64,000 bases of DNA from an uncultured beta proteobacterium (GCA_903885665.1 CAISJL010000117.1:3479-67478); one strand, 5' to 3'. Positions 1,705 through 64,000 are shown, numbered from the stretch's first letter. Program-made: numbers and translations. The notes: a model not told the origin generated them from the sequence alone.

Positions 1705-2562
1705 TTAATCGACTTGCGGCAACCCCAAGCGTTGCCAAATGGTTAGTGTGGGCGCTGCTTGGTTCATGGTATAAAAATGCAGCCCTGGTGCGCCTCCAGC
1801 GAGTAGTTGCTCGCACAGTGTAGTGACTACATCCAGACCAAAGGCTTGGATCGAAGTGGTGTCATCACCATAGCCTTCAATTTTGCGGCGAATCCAACGC
1901 GGAATTTCCGCACCACAAGCATCAGAGAAGCGGGCTAATTGCGAGAAGCGACCAATCGGCATAATCCCTGGTACGATGGGGATGTCAATATGCATCGATG
2001 CGCACGCATCCATGAAATGAAAATAGCAATCAGCGTTATAAAAATATTGGGTGATGGCTGAGTCTGCGCCTGCGTCGACTTTACGTTGAAAGTTTAACAA
2101 GTCTTGTTGGGCATTGAGTGCTTGCGGGTGATACTCTGGATAGGCCGCAACCTCAATAGTAAATTGTTGTCCAAACTCGCTGCGAATAAAACGCACCAAC
2201 TCGTTAGCATAATGCAGTTCACCTGCGCTACCTGTACCTGAGGGCAGGTCGCCCCGCAGTGCAACCAAATGTTGTATGCCGTGACTCCGATAGTCATTCA
2301 AAATAGCGTGGATTTCTTGCTTAGTCGAACCCACGCACGAGATGTGAGGGGCTGCCGCATAGCCGGCAGCTTGTAGATCGCGAACGACCTGTAGCGTGCG
2401 TTCGCGGGTGGAGCCACCCGCACCATAGGTTACCGAGAAAAATTTAGGTGCGAGTGCGGCCAGCATTTTGGCGGTATGGGCGAGTTTGGTAACGCCTTCC
2501 GTAGTATTGGGCGGGAAGAACTCAAAGCTAAAGGTTTGTGAGCGATTGCTTGGTGCAGTCAT
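1705..2562 (-). CDS. metF: 5,10-methylenetetrahydrofolate reductase
   Basis: FSFEFFPP, FFSVTYGAGGST, ALRGD, AITQYFY, GLHFYTMN. Start moved to MTAPSN (2562). Confidence 0.96.
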   Translation of the reverse strand: MTAPSNRSQTFSFEFFPPNTTEGVTKLAHTAKMLAALAPKFFSVTYGAGGSTRERTLQVVRDLQAAGYAAAPHISCVGSTKQEIHAILNDYRSHGIQHLVALRGDLPSGTGSAGELHYANELVRFIRSEFGQQFTIEVAAYPEYHPQALNAQQDLLNFQRKVDAGADSAITQYFYNADCYFHFMDACASMHIDIPIVPGIMPIGRFSQLARFSDACGAEIPRWIRRKIEGYGDDTTSIQAFGLDVVTTLCEQLLAGGAPGLHFYTMNQAAPTLTIWQRLGLPQVD

Positions 2563-2636
2563 GGCACTGTATTCAGTATGCTGTGTCTGTGAATTCAACC
2601 GCCACAGCATACTGCCTTAGTTAAGTGAATACCGAA

Positions 2637-4040
2637 TTAATACCGGTAGTGATCTGGCTTAAAGGGGCCGTCCACGGTTAATTGCAGATATTCGCATTGT
2701 TTTTCACTGAGGTTAGTGAGTTCAACACCAAGCTTCTTCAGATGCAAGCGGGCAACTTTTTCATCGAGGTGCTTGGGTAGCACATAGACTTTATTTTGAT
2801 ATTGGTCTCCACGGGTATAGAGCTCGAGTTGTGCCAAGGTTTGATTAGTGAACGAGCTTGACATCACGAAAGAGGGGTGGCCGGTGCCGCAACCCAAGTT
2901 GACCAGGCGACCTTCTGCTAAAATAATCAAGCGCTTGCCATCAGGGAAGATCACATGATCGACTTGCGGCTTGATGTTTTCCCACTTGAGTGTTTTGAGT
3001 TGGGCAATTTCGATTTCAGAATCAAAGTGACCGATGTTACACACAATACTGTTGTGTTTCATGCGCGACATGTGTTCAAAGTTGATGACCGCTAAGTTGC
3101 CGGTGGCGGTCACAAAAATATCGGCTTTATCAGCAGCGTAATCCATAGTCACGACACGGAAGCCTTCCATCGCCGCTTGCAGCGCGCAAATTGGATCAAC
3201 TTCAGTCACCCAGACTTGGGCAGATAGTGCGCGCAATGCTTGAGCGCTGCCTTTACCCACATCACCAAAACCGCAAACCAAGGCAATCTTGCCAGCGATC
3301 ATCACGTCAGTGGCGCGCTTGATAGCATCGACCAGTGATTCACGGCAACCATAAAGGTTGTCAAATTTGGATTTGGTCACGGAGTCATTGACGTTGATCG
3401 CAGGGAATGGCAGGCGACCTTCCTTTTCCATTTGGTATAAGCGATGCACACCGGTGGTGGTCTCTTCAGTCACGCCCTTGATGTTGGCTTCGATCTTGGA
3501 GTAAAAGCCAGGTCTTTCTTTTAAAGTTTTACGCATGGCAGCGAATAATACGATTTCTTCTTCATTGCTGCCGATGGGGGGTTGGGTGTTGGCGCGTTCG
3601 TGTTGCGCACCTAAGGTGACTAAGAGGGTCGCATCACCGCCATCATCTAAGATCATGTTTGGTGTGCCGCCATCGTGCCATTCGAGGATGCGATGCGTGT
3701 AGTCCCAGTAATCTTCTAGAGTCTCACCTTTGTAAGCAAATACAGGAATACCCGTCGCAGCAATTGCGGCTGCTGCATGATCTTGCGTTGAAAAAATATT
3801 ACAAGATACCCAGCGAATATCAGCACCTAAGTCAGCCAGAGTCTCAATTAATACGGCAGTTTGAATGGTCATGTGTAGCGAGCCGGCAATGCGAGCACCT
3901 TTCAGGGGCTTTTTGCCTTTGTATTCTTCGCGTAATGCCATCAGACCAGGCATTTCGGTCTCGGCAATTGTGATTTCTTTACGGCCAAATTCGGCTAATT
4001 CGATATCGGCGACAACGTAATCGGTATTTTTTGTAGTCAT
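2637..4040 (-). CDS. ahcY: Adenosylhomocysteinase
   Basis: [45 protein letters not shown]-terminal DHYRY. AGGAG RBS before ATG 4040. Confidence 0.98.
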
Positions 4041-4062
4041 TGCAACAACTCCTGATGTGAAT

Positions 4063-4126
4063 GGGCGCCGTTGCAAAAGGTGCGTCCCGAGCCTGGCCGA
4101 TAGTTTCGGTCGCAGCGCCCCTCAGG
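4063..4126 (-). ncRNA. SAH riboswitch (proximal copy, translational platform for ahcY)
   Basis: Minus strand CCUGAG-GGGCGCUGCG-ACCGA aacua UCGG-CCAGG-CUCGGG ... CAACGGCGCCC. P1, P2 and the P4 pseudoknot (GGGCG/CGCCC) fit the SAH consensus. The 3' P4 strand UUGCAACGGCGCC can alternatively pair with GGAGUUGUUGCAA, covering the ahcY RBS. Confidence 0.9.
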
Positions 4127-4197
4127 TGCACGTAAGGTCTCGAATATGAGTGCAGCGTAAAACGGGTGTTATGGTGATCTAATGTGATTAAACAATT

Positions 4198-4233
4198 AAA
4201 AAAAGCGCTCGCACCGTCAGACGGTACGAGCGC
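4198..4233 (-). terminator. Intrinsic terminator forming the expression platform of the distal SAH riboswitch
   Basis: Minus strand GCGCUCGUACCGU-cug-ACGGUGCGAGCGC-UUUUUUU (13 pairs incl. one GU, 7 U). The left arm overlaps the aptamer P4 strand. Confidence 0.88.
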
Positions 4234-4286
4234 AGTTGTATCTGGCTGAGCCTGGCCGGATTGTTCCGGTCGCAACGCTCCTCAGC
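4228..4286 (-). ncRNA. SAH riboswitch (distal copy, transcriptional platform, 16 nt after the metK stop)
   Basis: Minus strand GCUGAG-GAGCGUUGCG-ACCGGA acaa UCCGG-CCAGG-CUCAGC ... CAACUGCGCUC. It covaries with the proximal copy in P1 and P4. Confidence 0.9.
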
Positions 4287-4301
4287 GGGCAGAATTATAG
4301 C

Positions 4302-5468
4302 TTATTTCAGACCCGCAGCAGCTTTCAGTGCAGTCGCCTTGTCAGTATGCTCCCAAGTAAATTCTGGCTCATCACGACCAAAGTGGCCGTGCGCTGCCGT
4401 TTTCAAGTAAATGGGACGCAAGAGATCGAGTGACTGAATAATGCCTTTAGGGCGCAGATCAAAATGCAGTTCAACCAAAGCGCTGATCTTCTCATCGCTG
4501 ATTTTACCGGTGCCAAAGGTGTCAACCAGCACGCTGACAGGGCGCGCAACACCAATCGCGTAAGCAACTTGTATTTCACACTTAGAAGCCAAGCCGGCGG
4601 CAACAATATTTTTAGCGACATAACGGGCTGCGTAGGCGGCAGAGCGGTCAACTTTTGATGGGTCTTTGCCGGAGAATGCACCGCCACCGTGGCGCGAATA
4701 GCCGCCGTAGGTATCTACAATAATTTTACGACCTGTCAGGCCGGTATCACCTTGCGGGCCGCCGATGACAAAGCGCCCTGTGGGGTTAATTAAATATTTG
4801 GTGTCTTTGGTGATCATATTCACTGGCAATACCGGTTTGACCACCAATTCGATAATGGCATCGGTCAAATCTTTGTGGCTGATGTCCTCACGATGCTGGG
4901 TTGAAATAACCACGGTATCAATATGGTGTGGTTTGCCGTCGACATAACGAACCGAGACTTGCGATTTGGCATCGGGACGCGCCCAGGGTAGGCGACCGTC
5001 ACGGCGGAGTTCGGCATGACGCTCCATCAAGCGGTGCGAGTAGTAAATCGGCATCGGCATGAGTTGTGGTGTTTCATCGCAGGCAAAACCAAACATCAGT
5101 CCTTGGTCACCCGCGCCTTGATCGAGATCTAAACCTTTGCCTTCATCGACGCCTTGCGCAATATCAGTGGACTGTTCGTCGTAACAAACTAATACGCCGC
5201 AACTTTTGTAATCAAAGCCAATGTCAGAGTCGGTGTAACCAATTTGCTTAACGACTTCGCGTGCCACTTTGGCATAATCAACCCGGGCGCTGGTGGTCAC
5301 TTGTCCGGCCAATACGACTAAACCGGTGTGGGTCATGGTCTCGGCGGCGACTCTGCCGTTTTTATCTTGGGCCAGAATAGCGTCAAGCACTGCATCAGAA
5401 ATTTGATCGGCAATTTTGTCGGGATGACCTTCGGATACAGATTCAGAGGTAAATAGAAAGTTACTCAT
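4302..5468 (-). CDS. metK: S-adenosylmethionine synthetase
   Basis: [56 protein letters not shown]. Confidence 0.99.
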
Positions 5469-5761
5469 AATAGTCGTGAGATCTTTTTAGTGGATGGTTG
5501 GGTTAAGTGGTACGAAGTGATGTTGGTTTGTTGTGTTGTGATCATTATTGGGATGAAGAGTAAGAACGGTGCGACAAACCGTATTGGAGACAATTGAAAT
5601 TTTGATCAAAACATTTAATGCAGTGAACGGTTGCCGTGTAAGGGATTGCGAATTGTACCTATATTGCAGGGAAATCACAAAAAAAGCGTAGTAAATGGTG
5701 TCATTGTCAGCAGTTTAGTCTCAAAGCCGCGTTAGAATACCATATTAATGATTATTTTAAG

Positions 5762-6628
5762 ATGAACTCTGCCTTCAAAACCCTTGCTTTCATTGCGCGT
5801 TTATTGGCTCGTTTGCCCTTGCCGTTGTTGCATGTCTTGGGCAGTGGTTTGGGATGGTTGGCGTATTGGACGTCGTCCTCGTATCAAGAGCGCACCCACG
5901 TCCATCTTCAGGCTAGCGGTCTTTGTCCAAATCCCACGCTGTATCGCCAGGCGTTGCATACCGCGATTGCCGGTGGCGGTCAGGCGGTGACGGAGGCTGT
6001 AAAAGTTTGGTTTGAATCAGAGCGTATGTTGCTCAATATGGTGCAATGTACAACTTGGGGTGTGGTTGAAGCAGCCCAACAGCAGGGTAGAGGCGTGATT
6101 TTCTTAACTCCACATTTGGGTTGTTTTGAGATGTGTGGTTTTTATTTAGCGCAACAGTTCCCGCTCACCATACTATATCGGCCGTCTAAAAATAAATTAT
6201 TGGATCAATTGATGGCTGTGGGCCGGTTACGCGGTCAGGCGGTTTTGGCGCCCGCAAACTTAAAAGGGGTGAGATTGTTATTTAAAGCCTTGCGACGGGG
6301 CGAAGCCATTGGCATTTTGCCCGATCAAGTGCCAAGTGTTGGTGAGGGGCAGTGGGCGGATTTTTTTGGTCGCCCCGCCTATACCATGACCTTGGTTAGC
6401 CGCCTGCAACACACTACGGGCTCGCCAGTTGTGATGGTGTTTGCCGAGCGCCTACCGCATGGCCAGGGTTTTTATTTGCATTGTGAAGCGGTTAACGCCA
6501 ACCCATTGGATGCGCGGTCGCTCAATGCCGCGATCGAGCACGTTGTACAACGGGCGCCGGGTCAGTATCTATGGGGCTATAACCGTTATAAATCGCCCAG
6601 TGCGGCAGCTTCACAGGCCTTATTGTAA
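5762..6628 (+). CDS. Lipid A/lysophospholipid acyltransferase (LpxL/HtrB family), paralogue 1
   Basis: LTPHLGCFE (HxxxxE), ILPDQVP, ADFFG, QYLWGYNRYK. Confidence 0.85.
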   Translation: MNSAFKTLAFIARLLARLPLPLLHVLGSGLGWLAYWTSSSYQERTHVHLQASGLCPNPTLYRQALHTAIAGGGQAVTEAVKVWFESERMLLNMVQCTTWGVVEAAQQQGRGVIFLTPHLGCFEMCGFYLAQQFPLTILYRPSKNKLLDQLMAVGRLRGQAVLAPANLKGVRLLFKALRRGEAIGILPDQVPSVGEGQWADFFGRPAYTMTLVSRLQHTTGSPVVMVFAERLPHGQGFYLHCEAVNANPLDARSLNAAIEHVVQRAPGQYLWGYNRYKSPSAAASQALL

Positions 6629-7494
6629 TGTCTAGATTCGGCCTGGCCTTGGTGTGGTTACTCCACCGCTTACCCTTTGCACTGTTAGTCTGGTTTGGGC
6701 GTGCTTTGGGCCTTTTACTCTTCGTGCTAGCCATTGAGCGGCGTAGGGTGGTGTTGACCAATTTACAATTATGTTTTCCTCATTGGGGTGCTGCACAGCG
6801 GCGGCGGGTGGCGCGAGCGCATTTTCAGGCATTGGGCCGTTCGCTCCTTGAGCATGGCATATTGTGGTGGGCTAGTCGGGAGCGAGTGTTTGATTTAGTG
6901 CGAGTCGAAGGTGAGGCACATTTCAGAGCAGTCGAGCATGGCCCTGTGATTTTGTTAGCGCCCCATTTTGTCGGCTTAGATATGGGGGGCATTCGCTTTG
7001 GCGCGCAATGGGAAGGGGTATCCGTGTATAGCCAACAGAAAGACCCAGTATTTGATGATTTGTTGTTGCGGGGACGCACCCGTTTAGGGCCTGCCCAATT
7101 GTTTTCACGGCAAGAGGGTATTCGGCCGGTGGCGCGAGCGATTAAGGCGGGCTATCCGTTTTACTATCTACCCGACATGGATTTTGGGGCCCGCGATTCG
7201 ATTTTTGTAAGCTTTTTTGAAACCACCGCTGCGACCATTACTGGTTTGTCGCGTTTGGCGCGTTTAACAGGAGCGCGGGTAGTGCCTTTGGTCACGACGC
7301 AATTACCAGGTACTGACGGCTATGTCATGCAATTTTACCCGGCCTGGGATGACTTCCCCAGCGATGATATTGTTGCCGACACCCGAAGGATGAACGCATT
7401 TATTGAAGCACGAATTCTGGAAATGCCCGAACAATACTACTGGGTGCATAAACGTTTTAAGACTCGCCCCGCGGGCGAGGCGTCAGTTTATTAA
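6628..7494 (+). CDS. lpxL: Lipid A lauroyl acyltransferase (LpxL/HtrB family), paralogue 2
   Basis: LAPHFVGLD (HxxxxD), YLPDMDFG, PEQYYWVHKRFKTRP. Start overlaps the upstream stop. Confidence 0.85.
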   Translation: MSRFGLALVWLLHRLPFALLVWFGRALGLLLFVLAIERRRVVLTNLQLCFPHWGAAQRRRVARAHFQALGRSLLEHGILWWASRERVFDLVRVEGEAHFRAVEHGPVILLAPHFVGLDMGGIRFGAQWEGVSVYSQQKDPVFDDLLLRGRTRLGPAQLFSRQEGIRPVARAIKAGYPFYYLPDMDFGARDSIFVSFFETTAATITGLSRLARLTGARVVPLVTTQLPGTDGYVMQFYPAWDDFPSDDIVADTRRMNAFIEARILEMPEQYYWVHKRFKTRPAGEASVY

Positions 7495-7629
7495 TGGCAT
7501 CCCTTATATAATAGGTTTGATGATTATGCGGAAAATGTGGATACCTTCAGAGTCGATGCGGCAGCCAAGCCCGAGAGGGATTGCTCGCGGATGGGTGGTG
7601 GAGGCTTGGATCCATAGAGGGGGCGGGGT

Positions 7630-8493
7630 ATGAGCGAGCAGTTGGTATTTACTAAAATGCAGGGCCTTGGCAATGATTTTGTGGTGATTAATGCGACAAC
7701 TCAGCCCTTTAACCTGAGCGTTGCCCAGATGCGCGCACTAGCGGATCGGCATTTTGGTGTTGGTTGCGATCAAATTCTGGTGGTGGAAGCTGCTCGTACT
7801 CCCGATACCGATTTTTACTACCGTATTTTTAATGCCGACGGCGGCGAAGTGGAGCAATGTGGCAATGGTGCACGGTGTTTTGTGCGCTACGTGCACGAAC
7901 ATGGCTTAATCACGGCATCGCAGATTCGCGTAGGCACGCGGGCTGGCGTGATTGTGTTAACGCTGACCGCGGCTGGTGAGGTGACCGTCAATATGGGCGC
8001 TCCGGTATTTGCTTTATCACAAATTCCTTGTTTGGCACCGGCACTGGCGGTAGAGTATGACTTACCTTTGAACGAAAAAACAATTAAAATCAATATATTA
8101 TCTATGGGTAATCCGCATGCAGTGTTGCGGGTGACCGATTGGGATGCAGCACTGGTAGCGCGTGATGGTGCTTTAATTCAAGCGCACCCGTGGTTTCCCC
8201 AGCAGGTGAATGTTGGATTTTTGCAGGTGATCGATAGACAGCATATTCGCTTGCGAGTCTATGAGCGGGGGGCGGGTGAAACCTTGGCTTGTGGAACGGG
8301 CGCCTGTGCCGCGGTAGTCGCTGGTATTCGACAAGGTTGGTTAGACGCGCAGGTACGAGTGACAACCCGTGGTGGTGATTTGCAGATTGGGTGGGCTGGC
8401 GCAGACGCTCCCGTGTACATGACGGGCCCAGCAGTCACCGTATTTGAAGGGGTGGTAGCGGTGGCAAGCTTGGATGGCGGTCGCGCAGCCTAG
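7630..8493 (+). CDS. dapF: Diaminopimelate epimerase
   Basis: [44 protein letters not shown]. Confidence 0.97.
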
Positions 8494-8674
8494 GCGGTAC
8501 AGTGCTAGGATTAGGGGAAGATGCGGTAAATTAGGTTAGAAGTTGGTATTTGCGGATGGTTTTTAATGGTGGTACGGAGATGTGCTTGACTGCGGCCATT
8601 GTCGCGACGATAGATGAATAGATGCCGTTGAATTGAATGCAGAATTTAATATAGAACCCAAGGATGATTTGCTG

Positions 8675-9319
8675 ATGAATGCCGATGAAGTTGCAGCGTA
8701 TTTGAAGGCACACCCCGAATTTTTTGAGCAATACGGCGAGGTGGTGGCTGATCTCTCTATGCCCAGTCCGCACGGCGGGCGCGCTATTTCTATTAGTGAG
8801 CGGCAGATTTTTACGCTGCGTGAGCGTAGCAAGAAGCTCGAGAGTAAATTGGCTGAGATGATCCAATTTGGTGAAGAAAACGATGTCATTATTCAGAAGA
8901 TACATCGCTTCACGTTATCGATGATTCGCACGCGTGGCTTGCTCGAAGTGGTCCACGCTATTGACGAAGGATTACATGGCGATTTTGTAGTCCCGCAGGT
9001 AGCTTTACGCCTGTGGCATGACGCGACCCCGTCATCATTGCGGCCCTCTGCCGCCTTGCATCACTTGGGGGAGAGCTTGACTGAGCCGCAGTGTGGCTCA
9101 GTGGCTTTGATTGATGCTACCGAGTTGTTTGGTGATGCGGCTGCTGATTTACAGTCTTATGCCTATGTGCCGCTACGCACTGCAGGTGTAGCGTTTGGTT
9201 TGTTGGTAATGGCCAGCGAAGATGAGCGGCGCTTCTACGCTGAAATGGGCACCGTTTACTTAACCTGTATTGGTGATTTGATTGCGGCTAGCTTGCAGCG
9301 CGAGCTAGATGCGGCGTGA
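8675..9319 (+). CDS. DUF484 family protein (GAF-like, YigA type)
   Basis: VAAYLKAHPEFFE N-terminus, ISERQ, RFYAEMGT; canonical position between dapF and xerC. Start could be 8633. Confidence 0.85.
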   Translation: MNADEVAAYLKAHPEFFEQYGEVVADLSMPSPHGGRAISISERQIFTLRERSKKLESKLAEMIQFGEENDVIIQKIHRFTLSMIRTRGLLEVVHAIDEGLHGDFVVPQVALRLWHDATPSSLRPSAALHHLGESLTEPQCGSVALIDATELFGDAAADLQSYAYVPLRTAGVAFGLLVMASEDERRFYAEMGTVYLTCIGDLIAASLQRELDAA

Positions 9320-10257
9320 CAGGTCTAGCAGTCGCACCTGTGCTTGATGCGACAGTCGCTATAGCTGAACCCAGTCAGAAATTATTACAGAGCTTTTTGC
9401 AGTATTTGCAATTTGAGCGGCGGCTCGCTACCCATACGGTCCTTAACTACGGACGCGATGTCAGCGCCTTGTTATCTCATGCCGCGACTCGCGCGCCAAC
9501 CGATTTAAATAGCCATGATATTCGACGCTGTATCAGCCAGTTGCATGGTCGCGGCCTAGATGGTCGCTCGCTGGCACGCATGTTGTCGGCGTGGCGCGGG
9601 TTTTATCACTATTTATCTCGTGACCATGGCTGTCAGCACAATCCCTGTTTAGGCATTCGCGCGCCCAAGCGCGGTAAACGCTTGCCGCAGGCTTTGTCTC
9701 CCGATGAGACGCGACAACTGGTCGAAGTGCAAGCAGAGGATGCGTTGGCGATACGCGATCGAGCGATCTTGGAGTTATTTTATTCTTCAGGCTTGCGACT
9801 GGCAGAGTTGGCGAATTTAGCCCCAGCAGATGTGAATCATGCGGATGCCACGGTCAGAGTTACCGGTAAGGGAAATAAGACGCGGCTGGTGCCTGTAGGT
9901 CGTCAGGCCTTGGCGGCATTAACCACCTGGGACGCGCAGCGTGCCTTAGTGCCAGGCGTGGATGCGCAAGCTTTGTTTGTGACGCTCAAGGGTCGTCGCC
10001 TCGGACCGCGTGCGATTCAACTGCGGGTGGCGCGGCGTGGCATGCAACAATCGGTAGTCGGTCGTGTGCATCCGCATATGTTACGCCACTCGTTTGCCTC
10101 CCATGTGTTGCAGTCGAGTGGGGACTTGCGTGCAGTGCAAGATATGCTAGGGCACGCCAGTATTTCAACCACACAAGTCTATACGCAATTAGATTTCCAA
10201 CATCTCGCAAAAACTTATGATGCAGCGCATCCGCGCGCTCGAAAGAAATCCGTATGA
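9316..10257 (+). CDS. xerC: Tyrosine recombinase XerC
   Basis: RDRAILELFYSSGLRLAEL, GKGNKTR, HPHMLRHSFASH, LGHASISTTQVY; dapF-DUF484-xerC synteny. Confidence 0.93.
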   Translation: MTGLAVAPVLDATVAIAEPSQKLLQSFLQYLQFERRLATHTVLNYGRDVSALLSHAATRAPTDLNSHDIRRCISQLHGRGLDGRSLARMLSAWRGFYHYLSRDHGCQHNPCLGIRAPKRGKRLPQALSPDETRQLVEVQAEDALAIRDRAILELFYSSGLRLAELANLAPADVNHADATVRVTGKGNKTRLVPVGRQALAALTTWDAQRALVPGVDAQALFVTLKGRRLGPRAIQLRVARRGMQQSVVGRVHPHMLRHSFASHVLQSSGDLRAVQDMLGHASISTTQVYTQLDFQHLAKTYDAAHPRARKKSV

Positions 10258-59530: not shown

Positions 59531-60031
59531 ATGATTCAACTGAATATCAATGGTCGCCCCTATCGTGTTGCGGTCGAAGCAGATACCCCCTTGTTATGGG
59601 TTATTCGCGAACATGTCGGTTTGACAGGTACTAAATATGGCTGCGGTGTTGCGCAGTGTGGTGCGTGCTCTATCCACTTAAATGGTCAGTTAGTGCGTTC
59701 TTGCTCGTTGCCCGTCAGTGCAGTCAAGGCTACCGATAAGATCACCACGATTGAAGGCATCTCTGCGGATAACTCGCATCCAGTGCAAAAAGCCTGGGCC
59801 GAGATCGATGTGCCGCAGTGTGGTTACTGCCAATCAGGACAGGTCATGGCGGCAGTGGCTTTGCTCAAACGCAAGCCAAAGCCGACAGATAAGGACATTG
59901 ATGAGGTGATGACGAATATCTGTCGTTGTGGCACTTATCATCGGATTCGCGCAGCGGTGCATATTGCCGCTGGGAGCACTAAGGTCAGCGCGACTGAGGT
60001 GCCTGTGACTACCGATCAACAGACTGTCTAG
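59531..60031 (+). CDS. 2x[2Fe-2S] small subunit of an IorA/CoxS-type molybdenum hydroxylase
   Basis: GTKYGCGVAQCGAC, SC, PQCGYCQSGQ, NICRCGTY; AGGAG RBS; no export signal. Confidence 0.93.
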   Translation: MIQLNINGRPYRVAVEADTPLLWVIREHVGLTGTKYGCGVAQCGACSIHLNGQLVRSCSLPVSAVKATDKITTIEGISADNSHPVQKAWAEIDVPQCGYCQSGQVMAAVALLKRKPKPTDKDIDEVMTNICRCGTYHRIRAAVHIAAGSTKVSATEVPVTTDQQTV

Positions 60032-60048: not shown

Positions 60049-62253
60049 ATGAATAATAAACAACAAGTTGGCGCAGAATTAGATCCAACACGCCGTCAGT
60101 TTTTAGTGTCTTCTGCGGCGGTTGGTGGTGGTTTAGCTATTGGTATTCAATTGCCGTTTGGTGCGACTGAAGCGGCCGCGCAAAGTGCTGCGGACGCAGC
60201 AGAGGTGGGTATTTGGGTAGCGATACGGCCTGACGATACTTGCGTGATTCGGATTGTGCGTTCAGAGATGGGCCAAGGCACGCGCACTGGTCTTGCTCAG
60301 TTGGTGGCTGAAGAGTTGGAATGCGATTGGAAACGTGTGACTGTCGAACAAGTCACTGCTGGTCGTAATGTGAAGAGCAAACGCGCATGGGGTGATATGT
60401 CTACTGGGGGTAGTCGTGGTATTCGCACATCCCAAGAATATGTGCGAGGTGGCGGCGCTGTGGCGCGGACAATGCTATTACAAGCGGCTGCAAATGAATG
60501 GCAAGTGCCGGTGGCAGAGTTGAAAGTAGCGGCAGGGGTAATTACCCATGCTAGTTCTGGGCGTACTACCACCTACGGAAAAGTGGCTACTGCTGCAGCG
60601 AAACTGCCACAACCTGACTACAAGAGTATTCAGCTCAAGAATCCAAAAGATTGGAAGATCGCAGGTAAGCCCTTAAAGCGTTTGGATACCCTAGACAAGC
60701 TTAACGGCCAGAAGAAATTTGGCTTTGACTTGCAATTGCCCGGCATGCTGCATGCCACGGTGAAAGACTGTCCAGTCTATGGTGGTAAGTTGGTGAGTTT
60801 CGATGACGCTAAAGTCAAGACCATGCCTGGTGTGAAGCAGGTGCTTAGAGTGAATGCTACTACGGTGGGTGTGGTTGCTGATACCTGGTGGCGTGCTAAA
60901 AAAGCATTGGATGCGCTTCCCATTGTTTGGGATGAAGGTCCTAATGCCAAGGTAAATAGCGCCAGTATTGCTGAGCATTTGAAATCAGGCTTAACATCAG
61001 ATGATGCATTTGCGGATACCAATACGGGTGATGCGATCAATGCGATTGCTGGGGCCACAAAGAAAATCGAGGCGGTCTATAGTGTGCCGTTCTCGGGTCA
61101 CGCGATGATGGAACCGATTAATTGTACCGTGAAGCTCTCGGCAGATCGTGCGGAGTTATGGATTCCGTCACAAAATGCGGATGCCTCGATTGCAACGTTG
61201 TCCACTGCAACTGGGCTGCCACAAACACAATGTGAAGTTTATATTCAAGACTTGGGCGGCGGCTTTGGCCGACGTGGAGTGCAAGATGTCGTTGGGCAAG
61301 CGGTAGCCATTGCTAAAAATTATCCGGGTGTGCCGGTAAAGCTGGCATGGTCGCGGGAAGAAGATCAGTCGCACGACTTCTATCGCCCGATTGCGCAATG
61401 TAAATTGTCAGCAGGTGTGGATGCTAATGGTAATTTAGCGGGCATGCACATTCGAGTATCAGGTCAGTCGATTAACGCTTATTTGAATCCGGCTGCCATT
61501 ATTGGTGGTAAGGATAAACGACAGCTGCAAGGTATGTGGCCAGAGCCGCATGATGCGCAGTTCGGCTATACCCATCCGAATCTGAAGATCGAGTATGCAA
61601 TGCGTAACACCCACATACCGGTAGGCGCATGGCGCGGTGTGAATACCAATCAAAATGGCATTTTTACCGAATGCTTCATGGATGAGGTAGCGCGATTGGC
61701 TGGTAAAGATCCGCTGGCCTTCAGGCGCGCGTTGATGGCTGAGCGGCCTAAGCACCTCGGTGTACTGAACGCCGCTGCCGAGCGTGCCGGATGGGGTAAG
61801 CCGCTACCCGCAGGTCGCTTCCGTGGTATTGCGCAGTTCATGGGCTACGCTAGTTATTCAGCCGCTGTTGCCGAGGTATCGGTGAGTGCTAAAGGTGAGG
61901 TGAAGGTGCATCGCATGGTGTTTGCATTAGATTGCGGTCATATCGTTAATCCGGATCAAGTGAACTCACAAATTGAAGGCTCAGTTGCCTACGGTATGAC
62001 GGCTTTACAAAGTGAGGTCTCGGTTGCACAAGGGCGGATTGTTGAAACCAACTTCCATAATTATCGTGTGATGCGTATCGCAGAAATGCCTAAGGTCGAG
62101 ACCGTATTAGTCCCTACAGGTGATTTCTGGGGTGGTGTGGGTGAACCGACAATTTGCGTTGTAGTGCCAGCCATTATGAATGCGATTCTAGCGGCAACTG
62201 GTAAGCCAGTGCGTGCACTACCGCTAGAGAAGCAAGGCTTGAAACTCGTCTAA
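60049..62253 (+). CDS. Tat-exported molybdopterin-binding large subunit, IorB-like (xanthine oxidase family)
   Basis: TRRQFL Tat motif, RSEMGQG, TGGSRG, GGGFGRR, WRGV, GGVGEP (catalytic Glu). Confidence 0.92.
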   Translation: MNNKQQVGAELDPTRRQFLVSSAAVGGGLAIGIQLPFGATEAAAQSAADAAEVGIWVAIRPDDTCVIRIVRSEMGQGTRTGLAQLVAEELECDWKRVTVEQVTAGRNVKSKRAWGDMSTGGSRGIRTSQEYVRGGGAVARTMLLQAAANEWQVPVAELKVAAGVITHASSGRTTTYGKVATAAAKLPQPDYKSIQLKNPKDWKIAGKPLKRLDTLDKLNGQKKFGFDLQLPGMLHATVKDCPVYGGKLVSFDDAKVKTMPGVKQVLRVNATTVGVVADTWWRAKKALDALPIVWDEGPNAKVNSASIAEHLKSGLTSDDAFADTNTGDAINAIAGATKKIEAVYSVPFSGHAMMEPINCTVKLSADRAELWIPSQNADASIATLSTATGLPQTQCEVYIQDLGGGFGRRGVQDVVGQAVAIAKNYPGVPVKLAWSREEDQSHDFYRPIAQCKLSAGVDANGNLAGMHIRVSGQSINAYLNPAAIIGGKDKRQLQGMWPEPHDAQFGYTHPNLKIEYAMRNTHIPVGAWRGVNTNQNGIFTECFMDEVARLAGKDPLAFRRALMAERPKHLGVLNAAAERAGWGKPLPAGRFRGIAQFMGYASYSAAVAEVSVSAKGEVKVHRMVFALDCGHIVNPDQVNSQIEGSVAYGMTALQSEVSVAQGRIVETNFHNYRVMRIAEMPKVETVLVPTGDFWGGVGEPTICVVVPAIMNAILAATGKPVRALPLEKQGLKLV

Positions 62254-62256
62254 GGA

Positions 62257-62745
62257 TTGTCAGCGATTGCTACGTGGCTATTGAAAATTGTGTTGTGGGG
62301 TGCTGTGATCACACTGTGTGATGCAGCGCCTCCTGACAATCATTCAGCAACAGCCGCATTAACAGCGGCTCATGTTTTGCAAACGGTGCAGGTGACTGGG
62401 GATGCGATTGCGATGCCACTAGCAACAAGTAGTGATCCAGCACGCGGCCGCGAGTTGGTGATGGGTCGTGAATCTAACTGTATGCTGTGTCATGCTATTC
62501 CTGAGACCGGTGCACAATTTATGGGCAATATCGGCCCCACATTATCAGGCGTTGCGCAGCGTTTGTCGGCAGCACAGATGCGCTTGCGAATTGTAGATCA
62601 ATCGCGCTTGAACCCGGCTACTGTAATGCCAGCGTATTATCGGACTGAAGGCCTCAGCTTGGTGGCACCCAGTTTTCAGGGTAAACCGGTTTTAAATGCA
62701 CAGCAAATCGAAGACGTGATTGCTTATTTACAAACCTTAAAGTAA
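62257..62745 (+). CDS. soxX: SoxX-like monoheme c-type cytochrome
   Basis: GDAI-PL, DPARGR, NCMLCH, GNIGPTL, LRLRIVD-like, NPATVMPAYY, IEDVIAYL. Start codon uncertain. Confidence 0.85.
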   Translation: MSAIATWLLKIVLWGAVITLCDAAPPDNHSATAALTAAHVLQTVQVTGDAIAMPLATSSDPARGRELVMGRESNCMLCHAIPETGAQFMGNIGPTLSGVAQRLSAAQMRLRIVDQSRLNPATVMPAYYRTEGLSLVAPSFQGKPVLNAQQIEDVIAYLQTLK

Positions 62746-62752
62746 AGCGTTT

Positions 62753-63202
62753 ATGATGAATCGTCGCACATTTTTGAGTTCTGGATTCTGCGCCTTGCCG
62801 TGGTGTACGCCAATAGCGTGGGCGCAAACAGAAACAAAACGTGAGCAGTTAATGCGTGAGGTCAGTGGGGGAGCCGTGGTTAATCCGGGGCGAGTGATTG
62901 TGGATACTCCAACGCTGGCTGATAACGGTCATTCGATACCAGTGCGGATTACTGTCGAGAGCCCAATGACGCCTGAAGATTACGTGCAGCGGGTGACGAT
63001 TCTAGCAGAACGTAATCCGCGTCCAATCGTGGCGAGTTTTATGTTTAGCCCTGCCTCAGGGCGGGCCGAGGTGATGACACGCATTCGTTTGGCCGATATT
63101 CAAGATGTGGTTGCGGTTGCCCAACTCGCTAATGGCACCTATTGGTATGGACAGACCAAGGTGATTGTTACTGAGTTAGCGTGTTTGGAAGAGGTGCGCT
63201 AG
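62753..63202 (+). CDS. soxY: SoxY-like carrier protein with a non-canonical C-terminus
   Basis: Tat motif NRRTFL, P-LADNG-SIPV, NPRP, TRIRLA; ends VIVTELACLEEVR instead of VKVTIGGCGG. Confidence 0.82.
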   Translation: MMNRRTFLSSGFCALPWCTPIAWAQTETKREQLMREVSGGAVVNPGRVIVDTPTLADNGHSIPVRITVESPMTPEDYVQRVTILAERNPRPIVASFMFSPASGRAEVMTRIRLADIQDVVAVAQLANGTYWYGQTKVIVTELACLEEVR

Positions 63203-63204
63203 AG

Positions 63205-63525
63205 ATGCTGGCGAGAATTCAAGTGCCTAGTCAAGCGCGTCGCGGTGAAGTGATGACGATTCGTATTTCGATTCAACACGCGATGGAGACCGGTTACCGT
63301 TTAGATGACTTTGGTCGTGCTTATCCCAAAAATGTGATACACACCCTGAGTTGTCATTACGGGGGCAAGGAAGTGTTTCGCGCTGAGATGGGCTCTGGCA
63401 TTGCGGCTAATCCTTATTTTGAGTTCTATGTGCTGGCCGATCAAAGTGGGGAGTTGCGCTTTGAATGGCAAGACGATTCTGGTGTAGGTGGTGCAGAGCG
63501 CGCGACCGTGCAGGTTGTGACTTGA
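63205..63525 (+). CDS. soxZ: SoxZ-like protein
   Basis: IQHAMETG (HPMETG-like), GIAANPYFEF, LRFEWQDD; GAGG RBS before ATG 63205. Confidence 0.87.
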   Translation: MLARIQVPSQARRGEVMTIRISIQHAMETGYRLDDFGRAYPKNVIHTLSCHYGGKEVFRAEMGSGIAANPYFEFYVLADQSGELRFEWQDDSGVGGAERATVQVVT

Positions 63526-63533
63526 TTCAACCG

Positions 63534-64000
63534 ATGTGGTGGCTGTGGTTCATGAGTATTGGCATATGGTGTGCAGTCACTCCATGGTCGAGTCATAGTG
63601 CTGAATCCATACCCCCCATATTCTCCATATCACCACCCGCTTCATCAACGCCACTAGCGCCATTGGGCCGCTCGGGAATCACCTTTGCAAGTCCAGACAT
63701 TCGTCAACTGCAAGCTGATAATTTTGCCAATCCAGGCATGCTTTGGGTAACACGTGGCGAGACTATATGGCGCACACCTAGCGGCGTGAAAGGCCAGGCC
63801 TGTGCCAGCTGTCATCAAGATGCTCAGCAAAGTATGCAAGGCGTGTCAGCGCGTTATCCACGACTCGATACAGGGCGTGGCACCATACTCAATATTGAAG
63901 GGCAGATTAATCGCTGTCGCCAAGAACAACAGGCTACTACGCCTTGGGTTTATGAGTCGGCGGATTTATTGGCAATGACTGCCTATTTGAATTACCAATC
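63534..64000 (+). CDS. soxA: SoxA-like c-type cytochrome (partial, runs off the window)
   Basis: Hand translation, open to the window end: ...DNFANPGMLWVTRGETIW...GQACASCH...ARYP...IEGQINRCRQEQQ...YES-DLLAMTAYL. Absent from the ORF track because there is no stop codon. Confidence 0.85.
   Translation, partial: MWWLWFMSIGIWCAVTPWSSHSAESIPPIFSISPPASSTPLAPLGRSGITFASPDIRQLQADNFANPGMLWVTRGETIWRTPSGVKGQACASCHQDAQQSMQGVSARYPRLDTGRGTILNIEGQINRCRQEQQATTPWVYESADLLAMTAYLNYQ

What the first reader, a model, noticed from the sequence alone, without database searches (positions are those of the whole stretch)
62753..63202. SoxY swinging arm rewritten: VT-ELA-C-LEEVR instead of VT-IGG-C-GG
Seen: the Cys is kept in the same register after VT, but all four flanking glycines are replaced by bulky or acidic residues and the chain is extended by 3 aa. 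Known: the GGCGG arm is near-invariant in thiosulfate-oxidising SoxY and must enter the SoxA, SoxB and SoxC active sites. Inference: strong sign of a different partner set or cargo; the acidic tail may dock on the IorB funnel.
Basis: partly seen in the sequence, partly recalled or inferred. Interest (0 to 1): 0.62.

Follow-up and report, generated by a model that had tools for sequence, protein, structure and literature searches.

The report
Variant-arm SoxY tied to molybdoenzyme
This gene encodes a real, conserved variant of the sulfur-carrier protein SoxY whose cysteine tail is rewritten; it belongs to a named but never-tested protein family that sits beside a periplasmic molybdenum enzyme instead of the usual sulfur-oxidation enzymes.

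Summary
ORF 62753-63202 (+) encodes a 149-aa Tat-exported protein with a SoxY fold. It ends ...VIVT-ELA-C-LEEVR, and Cys144 aligns exactly with the carrier cysteine of Paracoccus SoxY. All 120 database homologues (57-65% identical) keep TELAC-x-[D/E]. All 30 canonical SoxY sampled from the same order end VT-x-GGCG(G).

The "+3 aa" extension is private to this species; 90 of 120 homologues carry only three residues after the Cys.

The protein is not new in kind. Its best family is NCBIfam TIGR04487, "SoxY-related AACIE arm protein" (146 bits, below the cut-off of 172). It branches inside the clade that holds cut-off-passing members.

In about 65 loci from Beta- and Alphaproteobacteria, these carriers lie next to an IorAB-type xanthine-oxidase-family molybdoenzyme, with one exception. 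Usually they also have their own SoxX/SoxA, and sometimes flavocytochrome c. The genome also has a canonical soxYZAXB cluster elsewhere.

"Different partner set" is therefore well supported. "Acidic tail docks on IorB" is untested: some IorB-linked carriers have glycine or non-acidic arms, but IorB Lys207 tracks the acidic residue, which is a weak lead.

The function is unknown. The most likely role is a dedicated, insulated carrier that presents bound sulfur to IorAB.

The parts
59531..60031 (+). iorA-like small subunit (two [2Fe-2S] domains, no signal peptide)
   Evidence: Pfam Fer2_2 at 100.6 bits plus Fer2. It is 75-84% identical in 21 syntenic MAG loci.
60049..62253 (+). iorB-like Tat-exported molybdopterin subunit of the xanthine-oxidase family
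   Evidence: MoCoBD_1, MoCoBD_2 and a Tat signal RRQFL. The closest solved structure is 8gy3_C, the membrane aldehyde dehydrogenase large subunit, at 236 bits. The motifs GGGFGRR, W.REED and FWGGxGEP (the motif I take to carry the catalytic Glu) are conserved across module-linked orthologues, and there is no invariant Cys.
62257..62745 (+). soxX' monohaem cytochrome c (the TTG start is uncertain)
   Evidence: TIGR04485 SoxX at 80.8 bits, over the cut-off of 61. One CMLCH motif.
62753..63202 (+). soxY' variant-arm carrier, the finding itself. Tat signal within about residues 1-24 (62753-62824; cleavage site inferred).
63173..63199 (+). carrier arm ELACLEEVR (residues 141-149). Cys144 codon at 63182-63184.
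   Evidence: The sequence. Alignment to 2ox5_Y. TELAC-x-[DE] in 120/120 homologues. Low-pLDDT coil after the last strand.
63205..63525 (+). soxZ' partner subunit (no signal peptide; starts 2 nt after the soxY' stop)
   Evidence: PF08770 at 88.2 bits and TIGR04490 at 79.1 bits, over the cut-off of 76.
63534..64000 (+). soxA' dihaem cytochrome. It runs off the window and ends at window-equivalent 64361 (C117:67839).
   Evidence: PF21342 at 94.2 bits. The full 275-aa product has CASCH and CVHCH plus the Cys in RRLRSCF, matching the SoxA haem-ligand motif.

Best explanation
SoxY' is the cysteine-bearing subunit of a second, self-contained periplasmic carrier system that runs in parallel with the canonical Sox system of the same cell.

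Shown:
- It keeps the SoxY fold, the Tat signal, the adjacent SoxZ partner and a flexible C-terminal tail carrying one invariant Cys.
- It is co-inherited as a unit with an IorAB-type xanthine-oxidase-family molybdoenzyme. In this clade the unit also includes its own SoxX'/SoxA' cytochromes, and SoxA' keeps the active-site Cys.
- In other lineages a flavocytochrome c sulfide dehydrogenase sits in the same operon.

Inferred:
- SoxX'A' oxidatively loads an inorganic sulfur species (thiosulfate, sulfide or polysulfide) onto Cys144.
- The tail then carries it into IorAB, which oxidises the carrier-bound sulfur using water. Electrons leave through the two [2Fe-2S] clusters to c-type cytochromes.
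- The rewritten arm (E-L-A-C-L-E in place of G-G-C-G-G) acts as an address label. Its side chains keep the carrier out of the narrow SoxB channel, and they fit it to its own partners.

Speculative:
- With no hydrolase in the module, the product could be released by sulfide displacing sulfite from Cys-S-SO3-. That would give a SoxB-independent cycle from sulfide to sulfite.
For: - Tight six-gene operon with gaps of 2-17 nt.
- 21 of 21 MAG loci keep iorA-iorB-soxX-soxY'-soxZ'-soxA.
- 29 of 30 best TIGR04487-type loci in 301 Burkholderiales genomes have IorB adjacent; the thirtieth contig is too short.
- The linkage survives changes of gene order: L075, L082 and L083.
- Seven of 7 loci from other orders or classes have it too, five of them with an insert between iorB and soxX that proved to be fccAB in the two loci checked, L133 and L136.
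- The SoxY tree splits canonical from IorB-linked carriers at 100/99 support, and the IorB tree mirrors it.
- SoxY' is only 25% identical to the genome's own canonical SoxY, which ends GGCG and lies beside SoxB on C181.
- SoxA' keeps both haem motifs and the ligand Cys.
- IorB keeps the catalytic motifs.
- 19 of 61 module-bearing genomes have no SoxB.
- In Bradyrhizobium diazoefficiens only soxY1, not soxY2, is needed for thiosulfate oxidation (PMC5748708). Bradyrhizobium's second SoxY is of this family.
- The second sox cluster of Starkeya, with its XO-family enzyme, is barely expressed on thiosulfate (PMC3797975).
Against: - No experiment exists on any member of the family.
- Xanthine-oxidase-family enzymes are known to hydroxylate carbon, not sulfur (my knowledge).
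- The module has no hydrolase to release a product.
- 42 of 61 module-bearing genomes also have SoxB, so use of SoxB in trans cannot be excluded.
- Several SoxB-less genomes still hold a "true" SoxY, so some SoxB absences may be assembly gaps.
- The four-gene cores (iorAB-soxY'Z') have no SoxXA or cytochrome nearby, so loading and electron exit are unexplained there.
- That glycine is needed for entry into the SoxB channel rests on my memory of Grabarczyk et al. 2015, which was not held in the library.
Confidence: 0.55

Rival explanations
1. It is a redundant isoform for thiosulfate oxidation. SoxX'A' and SoxY'Z' are a second copy of the normal loading step and hand their adduct to the canonical SoxB in trans. 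The arm differences are tolerated variation, and IorAB is merely a neighbour or an electron-transfer accessory.
For: - 42 of 61 module-bearing genomes have SoxB, an enrichment over 108 of 240 without the module.
- SoxX and SoxA of this type also serve canonical GGCGG carriers in other Burkholderiales.
- SoxA' keeps its catalytic Cys.
Against: - The arm is invariant within the clade and never GGCGG in about 65 loci.
- IorAB linkage is kept through gene-order changes and across classes.
- 19 of 61 genomes lack SoxB.
- Bradyrhizobium soxY2 does not replace soxY1.
- The Starkeya cluster is not induced by thiosulfate.
Confidence: 0.15
2. It is a maintenance factor for the molybdenum site. SoxY'Z' carries a persulfide that restores the terminal Mo=S ligand that xanthine-oxidase-family enzymes lose. 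IorAB is exported folded, far from the cytoplasmic sulfurases, and SoxXA or FccAB supply the sulfur.
For: - The pairing is obligate with a xanthine-oxidase-family enzyme, including minimal four-gene cores of iorAB-soxY'Z' with nothing else conserved.
- The IorB and SoxY' trees co-diversify.
- The need for Mo=S is family knowledge.
Against: - Another IorAB paralogue in this genome (C111) has no such partner, and, from my knowledge, neither do other periplasmic enzymes of the family.
- A four-to-six-gene apparatus with haem enzymes looks like a flux pathway rather than a repair kit.
- No precedent is known to me.
Confidence: 0.1
3. IorAB oxidises a soluble organic substrate (an aldehyde or N-heterocycle). 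SoxX'A' are simply its cytochrome c electron acceptors: three haems in total, like the trihaem subunit of membrane aldehyde dehydrogenase. SoxY'Z' is a thiol-based regulator or scaffold.
For: - The closest solved relative of IorB is an aldehyde dehydrogenase large subunit that works with a cytochrome c subunit.
- SoxA' (2 haems) plus SoxX' (1 haem) give three haems.
Against: - SoxA' keeps the Cys haem ligand typical of the catalytic SoxA haem.
- The invariant Cys on a flexible tail is the hallmark of a covalent carrier.
- Flavocytochrome c sulfide dehydrogenase is inserted in the operon in other lineages.
- The four-gene cores keep SoxY'Z' but drop the cytochromes.
Confidence: 0.1
4. It is a decaying, non-functional SoxY paralogue whose arm has drifted.
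For: It scores below the curated cut-offs of both TIGR04487 and TIGR04488.
Against: - The arm and 40-odd other positions are invariant in 54-120 homologues.
- The frame, Tat signal and partner genes are intact.
- The operon is conserved.
Confidence: 0.02

Closest known systems
NCBIfam TIGR04487 (SoxY_para_1), "SoxY-related AACIE arm protein"
   Same: - It is the best-scoring family, at 146.1 bits.
- The arm has the same logic: small residue, Cys, aliphatic residue, acid (LACLE against AACIE).
- The protein lies in the same tree clade as cut-off-passing members, at 99/92 support.
- It has the same IorAB neighbourhood.
   Different: - It scores below the curated cut-off of 172.
- The arm has Glu-Leu at -3/-2 (TELAC), a signature of one freshwater Burkholderiales subclade of 22 rows.
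- The family name is an annotation only. No paper in the searched library contains "AACIE arm".
Canonical SoxY of the Sox thiosulfate-oxidising system (TIGR04488; Paracoccus pantotrophus SoxYZ, PDB 2ox5/2oxg)
   Same: - Fold, with TM 0.85.
- Tat signal and adjacent SoxZ.
- Cys in the same register on a flexible C-terminal tail.
- SoxX and SoxA in the same operon.
   Different: - The arm is ELACLEEVR rather than GGCG(G).
- It scores 87.6 bits against a cut-off of 125.
- It is 25% identical to the genome's own canonical SoxY.
- There is no SoxB or SoxCD in the operon; IorAB takes that place.
Second sox cluster of Starkeya novella (soxX2Y2Z2A2F2, Snov_1982-1977, plus the XO-family enzyme Snov_1975/1976; Kappler and Nouwens 2013, PMC3797975)
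   Same: SoxXA and SoxYZ duplicates without SoxB or SoxCD, in one operon with a xanthine-oxidase-family molybdoenzyme.
   Different: - It is alphaproteobacterial and includes soxF2, which is absent here.
- I could not read its arm sequence.
- The authors found very low expression and suggested no functional significance under their conditions.
soxY2 of Bradyrhizobium diazoefficiens (Masuda et al. 2010, as cited in PMC5748708)
   Same: - It is a second soxY beside a canonical one.
- Bradyrhizobium genomes carry iorA-iorB-fccA-fccB-soxX-soxY'(LAACTEEVI)-soxZ'-soxA.
- NCBI names that SoxY' an AACIE arm protein.
   Different: - The arm is LAACTEEVI, and fccAB is inserted in the operon.
- That soxY2 of strain USDA110 is this very gene is my inference; the original paper was not held.
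SoxCD sulfane dehydrogenase (functional analogue only)
   Same: It is a periplasmic molybdoenzyme that, in the canonical pathway, oxidises sulfur bound to the SoxY cysteine. IorAB occupies the equivalent operon position here.
   Different: - SoxC belongs to the sulfite-oxidase family, and IorB to the xanthine-oxidase family.
- There is no complementary distribution: 28 of 61 module-bearing genomes also have SoxC, against 45 of 240 others.
- This genome has no SoxC.
TIGR04557, quinoprotein dehydrogenase-associated SoxYZ-like carrier
   Same: It is another SoxYZ-type carrier recruited to a non-Sox periplasmic oxidoreductase. It gives weak hits to both SoxY' and SoxZ'.
   Different: - It is a fused YZ protein with a different partner enzyme.
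- The scores are far below its cut-off (63.5 and 47.3 against 140).

Membership tests
SoxY superfamily (Pfam PF13501) | Profile score over the gathering threshold | tested here: met
   99.3 bits against 28.4, covering residues 39-144.
SoxY superfamily (Pfam PF13501) | Immunoglobulin-like SoxY fold | tested here: met
   The AF2 model has mean pLDDT 83.8. Foldseek's top hits are Paracoccus SoxY chains, with target TM 0.85 and rmsd 1.7 A.
SoxY superfamily (Pfam PF13501) | Single Cys on a C-terminal tail after the last strand; Tat signal; SoxZ gene adjacent | tested here: met
   Cys144 aligns with the carrier Cys of 2ox5_Y. The tail, residues 141-149, is coil. The N-terminus carries RRTFL. soxZ' starts 2 nt after the soxY' stop.
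Canonical thiosulfate-oxidation SoxY (TIGR04488, SoxY_true_GGCGG) | Score over the curated cut-off of 125 bits | tested here: not met
   87.6 bits.
Canonical thiosulfate-oxidation SoxY (TIGR04488, SoxY_true_GGCGG) | GGCG(G) C-terminus | tested here: not met
   The protein ends ELACLEEVR. 30 of 30 canonical members sampled end VT[ILVA]GGCG(G).
Canonical thiosulfate-oxidation SoxY (TIGR04488, SoxY_true_GGCGG) | Works with SoxB (and SoxCD); encoded with them | tested here: not met
   - There is no soxB or soxCD in the operon.
- soxB lies with the canonical soxYZAX on contig C181.
- The genome has no SoxC.
- The biochemical partnership is not testable here.
NCBIfam TIGR04487, SoxY-related AACIE arm protein | Score over the curated cut-off of 172 bits | tested here: not met
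   146.1 bits, though it is the best hit and matches full length, 2-146 of 146. 43 other Burkholderiales genomes in the sample likewise score roughly 105-171 bits. Those I inspected have the same kind of neighbourhood.
NCBIfam TIGR04487, SoxY-related AACIE arm protein | Arm of the type small-small-Cys-aliphatic-acid in place of GGCGG | tested here: met
   LACLE here. Cut-off-passing members show LAACIEG, LSACTEMI, LAACLEE and LSACLEE.
NCBIfam TIGR04487, SoxY-related AACIE arm protein | Phylogenetic placement with bona fide members, apart from canonical SoxY | tested here: met
   The split between canonical and IorB-linked carriers has 100/99 support. The window lies inside the 45-row clade (99/92) that holds the members over the cut-off.
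IorAB-linked Sox-like module (Starkeya 'second sox cluster' type) | XO-family Mo enzyme plus SoxYZ paralogue (with or without SoxXA or FccAB) in one cluster, lacking SoxB and SoxCD | tested here: met
   iorA-iorB-soxX'-soxY'-soxZ'-soxA' at 59531 to beyond 64000. The same arrangement is found in 21 of 21 MAG loci.
IorAB-linked Sox-like module (Starkeya 'second sox cluster' type) | Carrier-bound sulfur is the substrate of the Mo enzyme | not testable with these tools
   This needs biochemistry. No published assay was found.

The most novel reading that the evidence does not exclude
IorAB would be the first xanthine-oxidase-family molybdoenzyme whose substrate is sulfur held on a protein cysteine. 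Together with SoxY'Z', and with SoxX'A' as loader, it would form a route from reduced sulfur to sulfite or sulfate that needs neither SoxB nor SoxCD. The rewritten arm would be an orthogonality device that lets two SoxYZ carrier circuits run side by side in one periplasm without cross-talk. It would be read in part by an electrostatic contact between the acid after the Cys and IorB Lys207.
Probability: 0.3. Interest if true: 0.8.

Novelty: new member of a known kind. Interest (0 to 1): 0.5.

Why it matters
The family is very large. One search hit the 8000-candidate ceiling, with 7998 proteins at E <= 1e-20. About 20% of sampled Burkholderiales genomes carry the module. It occurs in well-studied soil genera such as Bradyrhizobium.

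Even so, no paper in the searched library mentions the family by name. The largest SoxY survey I found discarded every sequence lacking a "GGC" motif (PMC11237559), so this branch has been overlooked.

If the molybdoenzyme really acts on carrier-bound sulfur, two things follow. It adds a new reaction type to the xanthine-oxidase family, and it adds a new branch to bacterial sulfur oxidation in lakes and soils.

The arm comparison also gives a clean, testable example of how a swinging-arm carrier is re-addressed to new partner enzymes.

Tried and rejected
- **Complementary distribution with SoxCD** (IorAB as a SoxCD replacement): rejected. SoxC is enriched, not depleted, in module-bearing genomes: 28 of 61 against 45 of 240.
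- **Strict dependence on SoxB:** rejected, since 19 of 61 genomes lack it. The caveat is that several of those still have a canonical SoxY.
- **The acidic/aliphatic arm tracks the presence of a dedicated SoxXA:** rejected. L065 and L066 have AACIE-type arms in four-gene cores without SoxXA, although both genomes hold a second cluster with SoxXA.
- **A conserved third partner in the flanks of the four-gene cores:** none found.
- **A conserved Cys in IorB for thiol-disulfide relay:** none; the best is 86% conserved.
- **A bit-score threshold on TIGR04487 to count modules:** this works only within Burkholderiales. In other classes canonical GGCGG proteins score 134-144 bits, and one Burkholderiales hit at 103.9 bits is canonical.
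- **Primary papers:** Grabarczyk 2015 (PMC4702959) and Masuda 2010 (PMC2849208) are not held. Points taken from them are marked as my own knowledge or as cited second-hand.
- **IorB-arm covariation:** only suggestive. Among 43 clade-discriminating columns, 0.56 are expected to switch in both deviant lineages and 2 do.

Full report
**What is there.** The window is G000:C117:3479-67478. ORF 62753-63202 (+) encodes 149 aa ending QTKVIVTELACLEEVR. It is the fourth gene of a tight same-strand block:
- iorA-like [2Fe-2S] subunit, 59531-60031
- iorB-like molybdopterin subunit with a Tat signal, 60049-62253
- soxX', 62257-62745
- soxY', 62753-63202
- soxZ', 63205-63525
- soxA', from 63534, running off the window to C117:67839

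The gaps between genes are 2-17 nt. Convergent 2-oxoacid:ferredoxin oxidoreductase-like genes follow, so the operon ends with soxA'.

**Checking the observation.** The protein matches Pfam SoxY at 99.3 bits. HMMER aligns residues 134-144 (QTKVIVTELAC) with QTTVKVTIGGC of Paracoccus SoxY (PDB 2ox5_Y). The Cys therefore sits in the register of the carrier cysteine.

An AlphaFold2 model built on 54 homologues is confident (mean pLDDT 83.8, core above 90). Its last strand ends at Thr140. Residues 141-149 are coil with low confidence, so they form a free tail like the canonical swinging arm. The model superposes on Paracoccus SoxY with target TM 0.85 and rmsd 1.7 A.

The rewritten arm is under strong constraint. 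All 120 listed homologues (57-65% identical; 246 in total at E <= 1e-5) contain TELAC-x-[D/E]. In a 54-sequence alignment, V137, V139, T140, E141, L142, A143 and C144 are invariant while mean column identity is 71%. By contrast, 30 of 30 canonical SoxY sampled from the same order end VT[ILVA]GGCG(G).

One detail of the observation does not generalise. The tail after Cys is 3 residues in 90 of 120 homologues and 4 in 27. The 5-residue LEEVR occurs only here.

**Which family it belongs to.** The best NCBIfam model is TIGR04487, "SoxY-related AACIE arm protein". It matches full length at 146.1 bits, below the curated cut-off of 172. The true-SoxY model TIGR04488 gives only 87.6 bits against a cut-off of 125.

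In a tree of 93 SoxY proteins, canonical GGCG(G) carriers form one side of a branch with 100/99 support. The window lies on the other side, inside a 45-row clade (99/92). All arms in that clade read [A/S/T][A/S/G]-C-[L/I/M/T/V], usually followed by D/E. The clade includes the members that pass the TIGR04487 cut-off.

The TELAC subclade (22 rows, 100/97) is sister to a TESACLD group. All 21 loci recovered from the species-level genome collection are uncultured freshwater or soil Burkholderiales MAGs. So the arm rewrite is a known, curated feature, and this protein is a divergent member of that kind.

**The neighbourhood is the informative part.**
- All 21 MAG loci keep iorA-iorB-soxX-soxY'-soxZ'-soxA where the contig allows.
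- In 301 Burkholderiales genomes, 61 carry a variant-arm SoxY'. This is my hand count of hits of 105 bits or more, after removing G166, which proved canonical.
- Of the 30 best loci, 29 have an IorB homologue directly beside SoxY'. The thirtieth contig is too short to tell.
- The linkage survives rearrangement: iorAB-Y'Z'-X-A in L075, X-Y'-Z'-A-iorAB in L082, and a divergent layout in L083.
- Seven loci from other orders or classes also have iorAB on the same strand. In five of them an insert of about 1.7 kb lies between iorB and soxX. In the two I checked (L133, L136), it encodes a small cytochrome c and a flavocytochrome c sulfide dehydrogenase flavoprotein.
- The one exception is G237 locus L073. 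There soxX-Y'(ETACLDASDIT)-Z'-A stands without iorAB, about 3.5 kb from a SoxC-like molybdoenzyme and cytochrome. The same genome has iorAB-soxY'Z' at another locus.

The IorB tree mirrors the SoxY' tree, so the two proteins are inherited as a unit.

**Two arm classes among IorB-linked carriers.**
- An apparently basal, unresolved set of 18 rows (midpoint rooting only) has near-canonical arms: VSGCG, VTGCGL, VAGCGL, LTACGG, VGGCDP. It occurs in four-gene cores iorA-iorB-soxY'-soxZ'. No soxX or soxA lies within 7-10 kb, and no other flank gene is conserved.
- The derived clade has the aliphatic-acid arms and holds all 40 clusters with their own SoxXA.
- Three genomes of one family have LAACVVL or LAACVIG arms with no acid.

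So IorB linkage does not by itself demand an acidic arm.

**A lead on the docking idea.** I looked for IorB positions that track the acid.
- Lys207 lies in the motif AGKPLKRLD, which I take from memory of the XO family to be the start of the hammerhead domain.
- It is Lys in 35 of 35 modules whose arm has D/E at +2 or +3.
- It is Thr in 12 glycine-arm modules and Gln in the 3 LAACV.. modules.
- L076 lies inside the glycine-arm IorB clade but has the arm AAACGD, and it has Lys.
- Only 2 of 734 columns partition this way.
- Among 43 clade-discriminating columns, 0.56 would be expected to switch in both deviant lineages and 2 do (columns 207 and 308).

I therefore treat this as suggestive only, at roughly P = 0.1.

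**Relation to the canonical system.** The same genome has soxYZAXB on contig C181. Its SoxY ends KITVGGCG. The genome has no SoxC.
- SoxY' is 25% identical to that SoxY.
- SoxA' is 25-26% identical to SoxA1.
- SoxA' is dihaem, whereas SoxA1 is monohaem.

These are old paralogues, not recent copies.

Across the order, 42 of 61 module-bearing genomes have SoxB and 19 do not. The background is 150 of 301. Some of the 19 still have a "true" SoxY, so part of that absence may be due to assembly gaps. SoxC is present in 28 of 61 module-bearing genomes against 45 of 240 others. IorAB is therefore not a stand-in that appears where SoxCD is missing.

**Competence of the parts.**
- SoxA' keeps both CxxCH motifs and the Cys in RRLRSCF, matching the haem-ligand Cys of catalytic SoxA.
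- SoxX' passes the SoxX equivalog cut-off.
- IorB's closest solved relative is the large subunit of membrane aldehyde dehydrogenase, 8gy3_C, at 236 bits.
- GGGFGRR, W.REED and FWGGxGEP (carrying, to my knowledge, the catalytic Glu of the family) are conserved across module-linked orthologues. No Cys is invariant, which argues against a thiol-disulfide relay with the carrier.

**Literature.**
- No paper in the library contains "AACIE" together with SoxY, or "AACIE arm".
- None links SoxY or SoxYZ with IorB in a relevant way.
- Kappler and Nouwens 2013 (PMC3797975) described a second sox cluster in Starkeya novella (soxX2Y2Z2A2F2). It lacks SoxB and SoxCD and shares an operon with a xanthine-oxidase-family enzyme. 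They found very low expression on thiosulfate, glucose and methanol.
- Masuda, Hennecke and Fischer 2017 (PMC5748708) state that B. diazoefficiens has soxY1 and soxY2 and that only soxY1 is essential for thiosulfate oxidation.
- Bradyrhizobium genomes carry the eight-gene form of this module. NCBI names their SoxY' an AACIE arm protein. That soxY2 is this gene is my inference.
- A 2024 survey of SoxY diversity removed every sequence without a "GGC" motif (PMC11237559), which excludes this clade.

**How it most likely works.**

Shown:
- a SoxY-fold carrier with an invariant Cys on a free tail
- obligate co-inheritance with a periplasmic IorAB
- its own, apparently competent SoxXA
- sulfide dehydrogenase in the operon in other lineages
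- independence from SoxB in part of the genomes

Inferred:
- SoxX'A' loads an inorganic sulfur species on Cys144.
- The tail delivers it to IorAB, which oxidises it.
- Electrons leave through the [2Fe-2S] clusters to cytochromes.
- The side chains of the arm exclude the carrier from SoxB, whose channel, as I recall from Grabarczyk et al. 2015 (not held), fits a glycine-rich arm. They also adapt it to its own partners.

Speculative:
- Release of sulfite by sulfide attack on Cys-S-SO3-. This is in line with the exchange chemistry described in PMC5336275 and would remove the need for a hydrolase.

I put 0.55 on the general model. The rivals are a redundant thiosulfate isoform using SoxB in trans (0.15), Mo=S repair (0.10), a soluble organic substrate with SoxXA as electron acceptors (0.10), and decay (0.02).

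**Verdict.** The protein is a divergent member of a named but functionally untested family. The same module has been met repeatedly elsewhere in this scan. Interest is moderate: ordinary as a sequence feature, but it marks a widespread system whose chemistry is unknown.

Noticed in passing
L073 (G237:C5:51000-69000), about 2486-9461: A genome of the same family has soxX-soxY'(ETACLDASDIT)-soxZ'-soxA without iorAB. About 3.5 kb away, convergent, lie a SoxC-like molybdoenzyme plus cytochrome c, TauD and two TctC receptors. The 2-oxoacid:ferredoxin oxidoreductase neighbours are the same kind as in this window. The same genome keeps iorAB-soxY'(LAACLEELPA)-soxZ' on another contig (L066). It looks like a split or ancestral form of the six-gene operon.
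   Followed up: partly
window 60667-60669 (IorB Lys207) and 60970-60972 (IorB Ala308): IorB Lys207 is present in 35 of 35 modules whose SoxY' arm has D/E at +2/+3. It is replaced by Thr or Gln in all 15 modules without that acid, including two lineage-specific switches. Position 308 behaves similarly. It may be a contact site between enzyme and arm; statistically this is only suggestive.
   Followed up: partly
window 63534-64000 and C181:40821-41690: The module's SoxA' is a dihaem protein (CASCH, CVHCH), whereas the canonical SoxA of the same genome is monohaem. SoxX and SoxA of the module's type also accompany canonical GGCGG carriers in soxXYZA clusters of other Burkholderiales.
   Followed up: partly
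L133 7696-9345; L136 7764-9382: In Bradyrhizobium-like and other genomes, a small cytochrome c and a flavocytochrome c sulfide dehydrogenase flavoprotein are inserted between iorB and soxX, giving an eight-gene operon. This ties the module to reduced-sulfur metabolism.
   Followed up: yes
L006 10775-11121 (also L003, L007, L009, L010, L013): In six loci of the TELAC clade, the spacer between soxZ' and the aligned part of soxA' is about 450 nt longer than in the others. In L006 the gap to the soxA' start is about 345 nt and holds a 70-aa minus-strand ORF with a signal-like N-terminus and a Cys/Lys-rich end. Its significance is unknown.
   Followed up: no
G000 contig C111:2094-4758 (-) and C185:75464-78500: The genome has two further IorAB-like pairs (27% and 24% identical to this IorB). 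They have no SoxYZ-like neighbour, and the C111 pair has no adjacent cytochrome c.
   Followed up: partly
window 64358-69145 equivalent (C117:67836-72623, minus strand, beyond the window end): The genes convergent on soxA' look like 2-oxoacid:ferredoxin oxidoreductase subunits. The same neighbours recur beside the Sox-like cluster in G237, where Pfam confirms POR_N and TPP_enzyme_C.
   Followed up: partly
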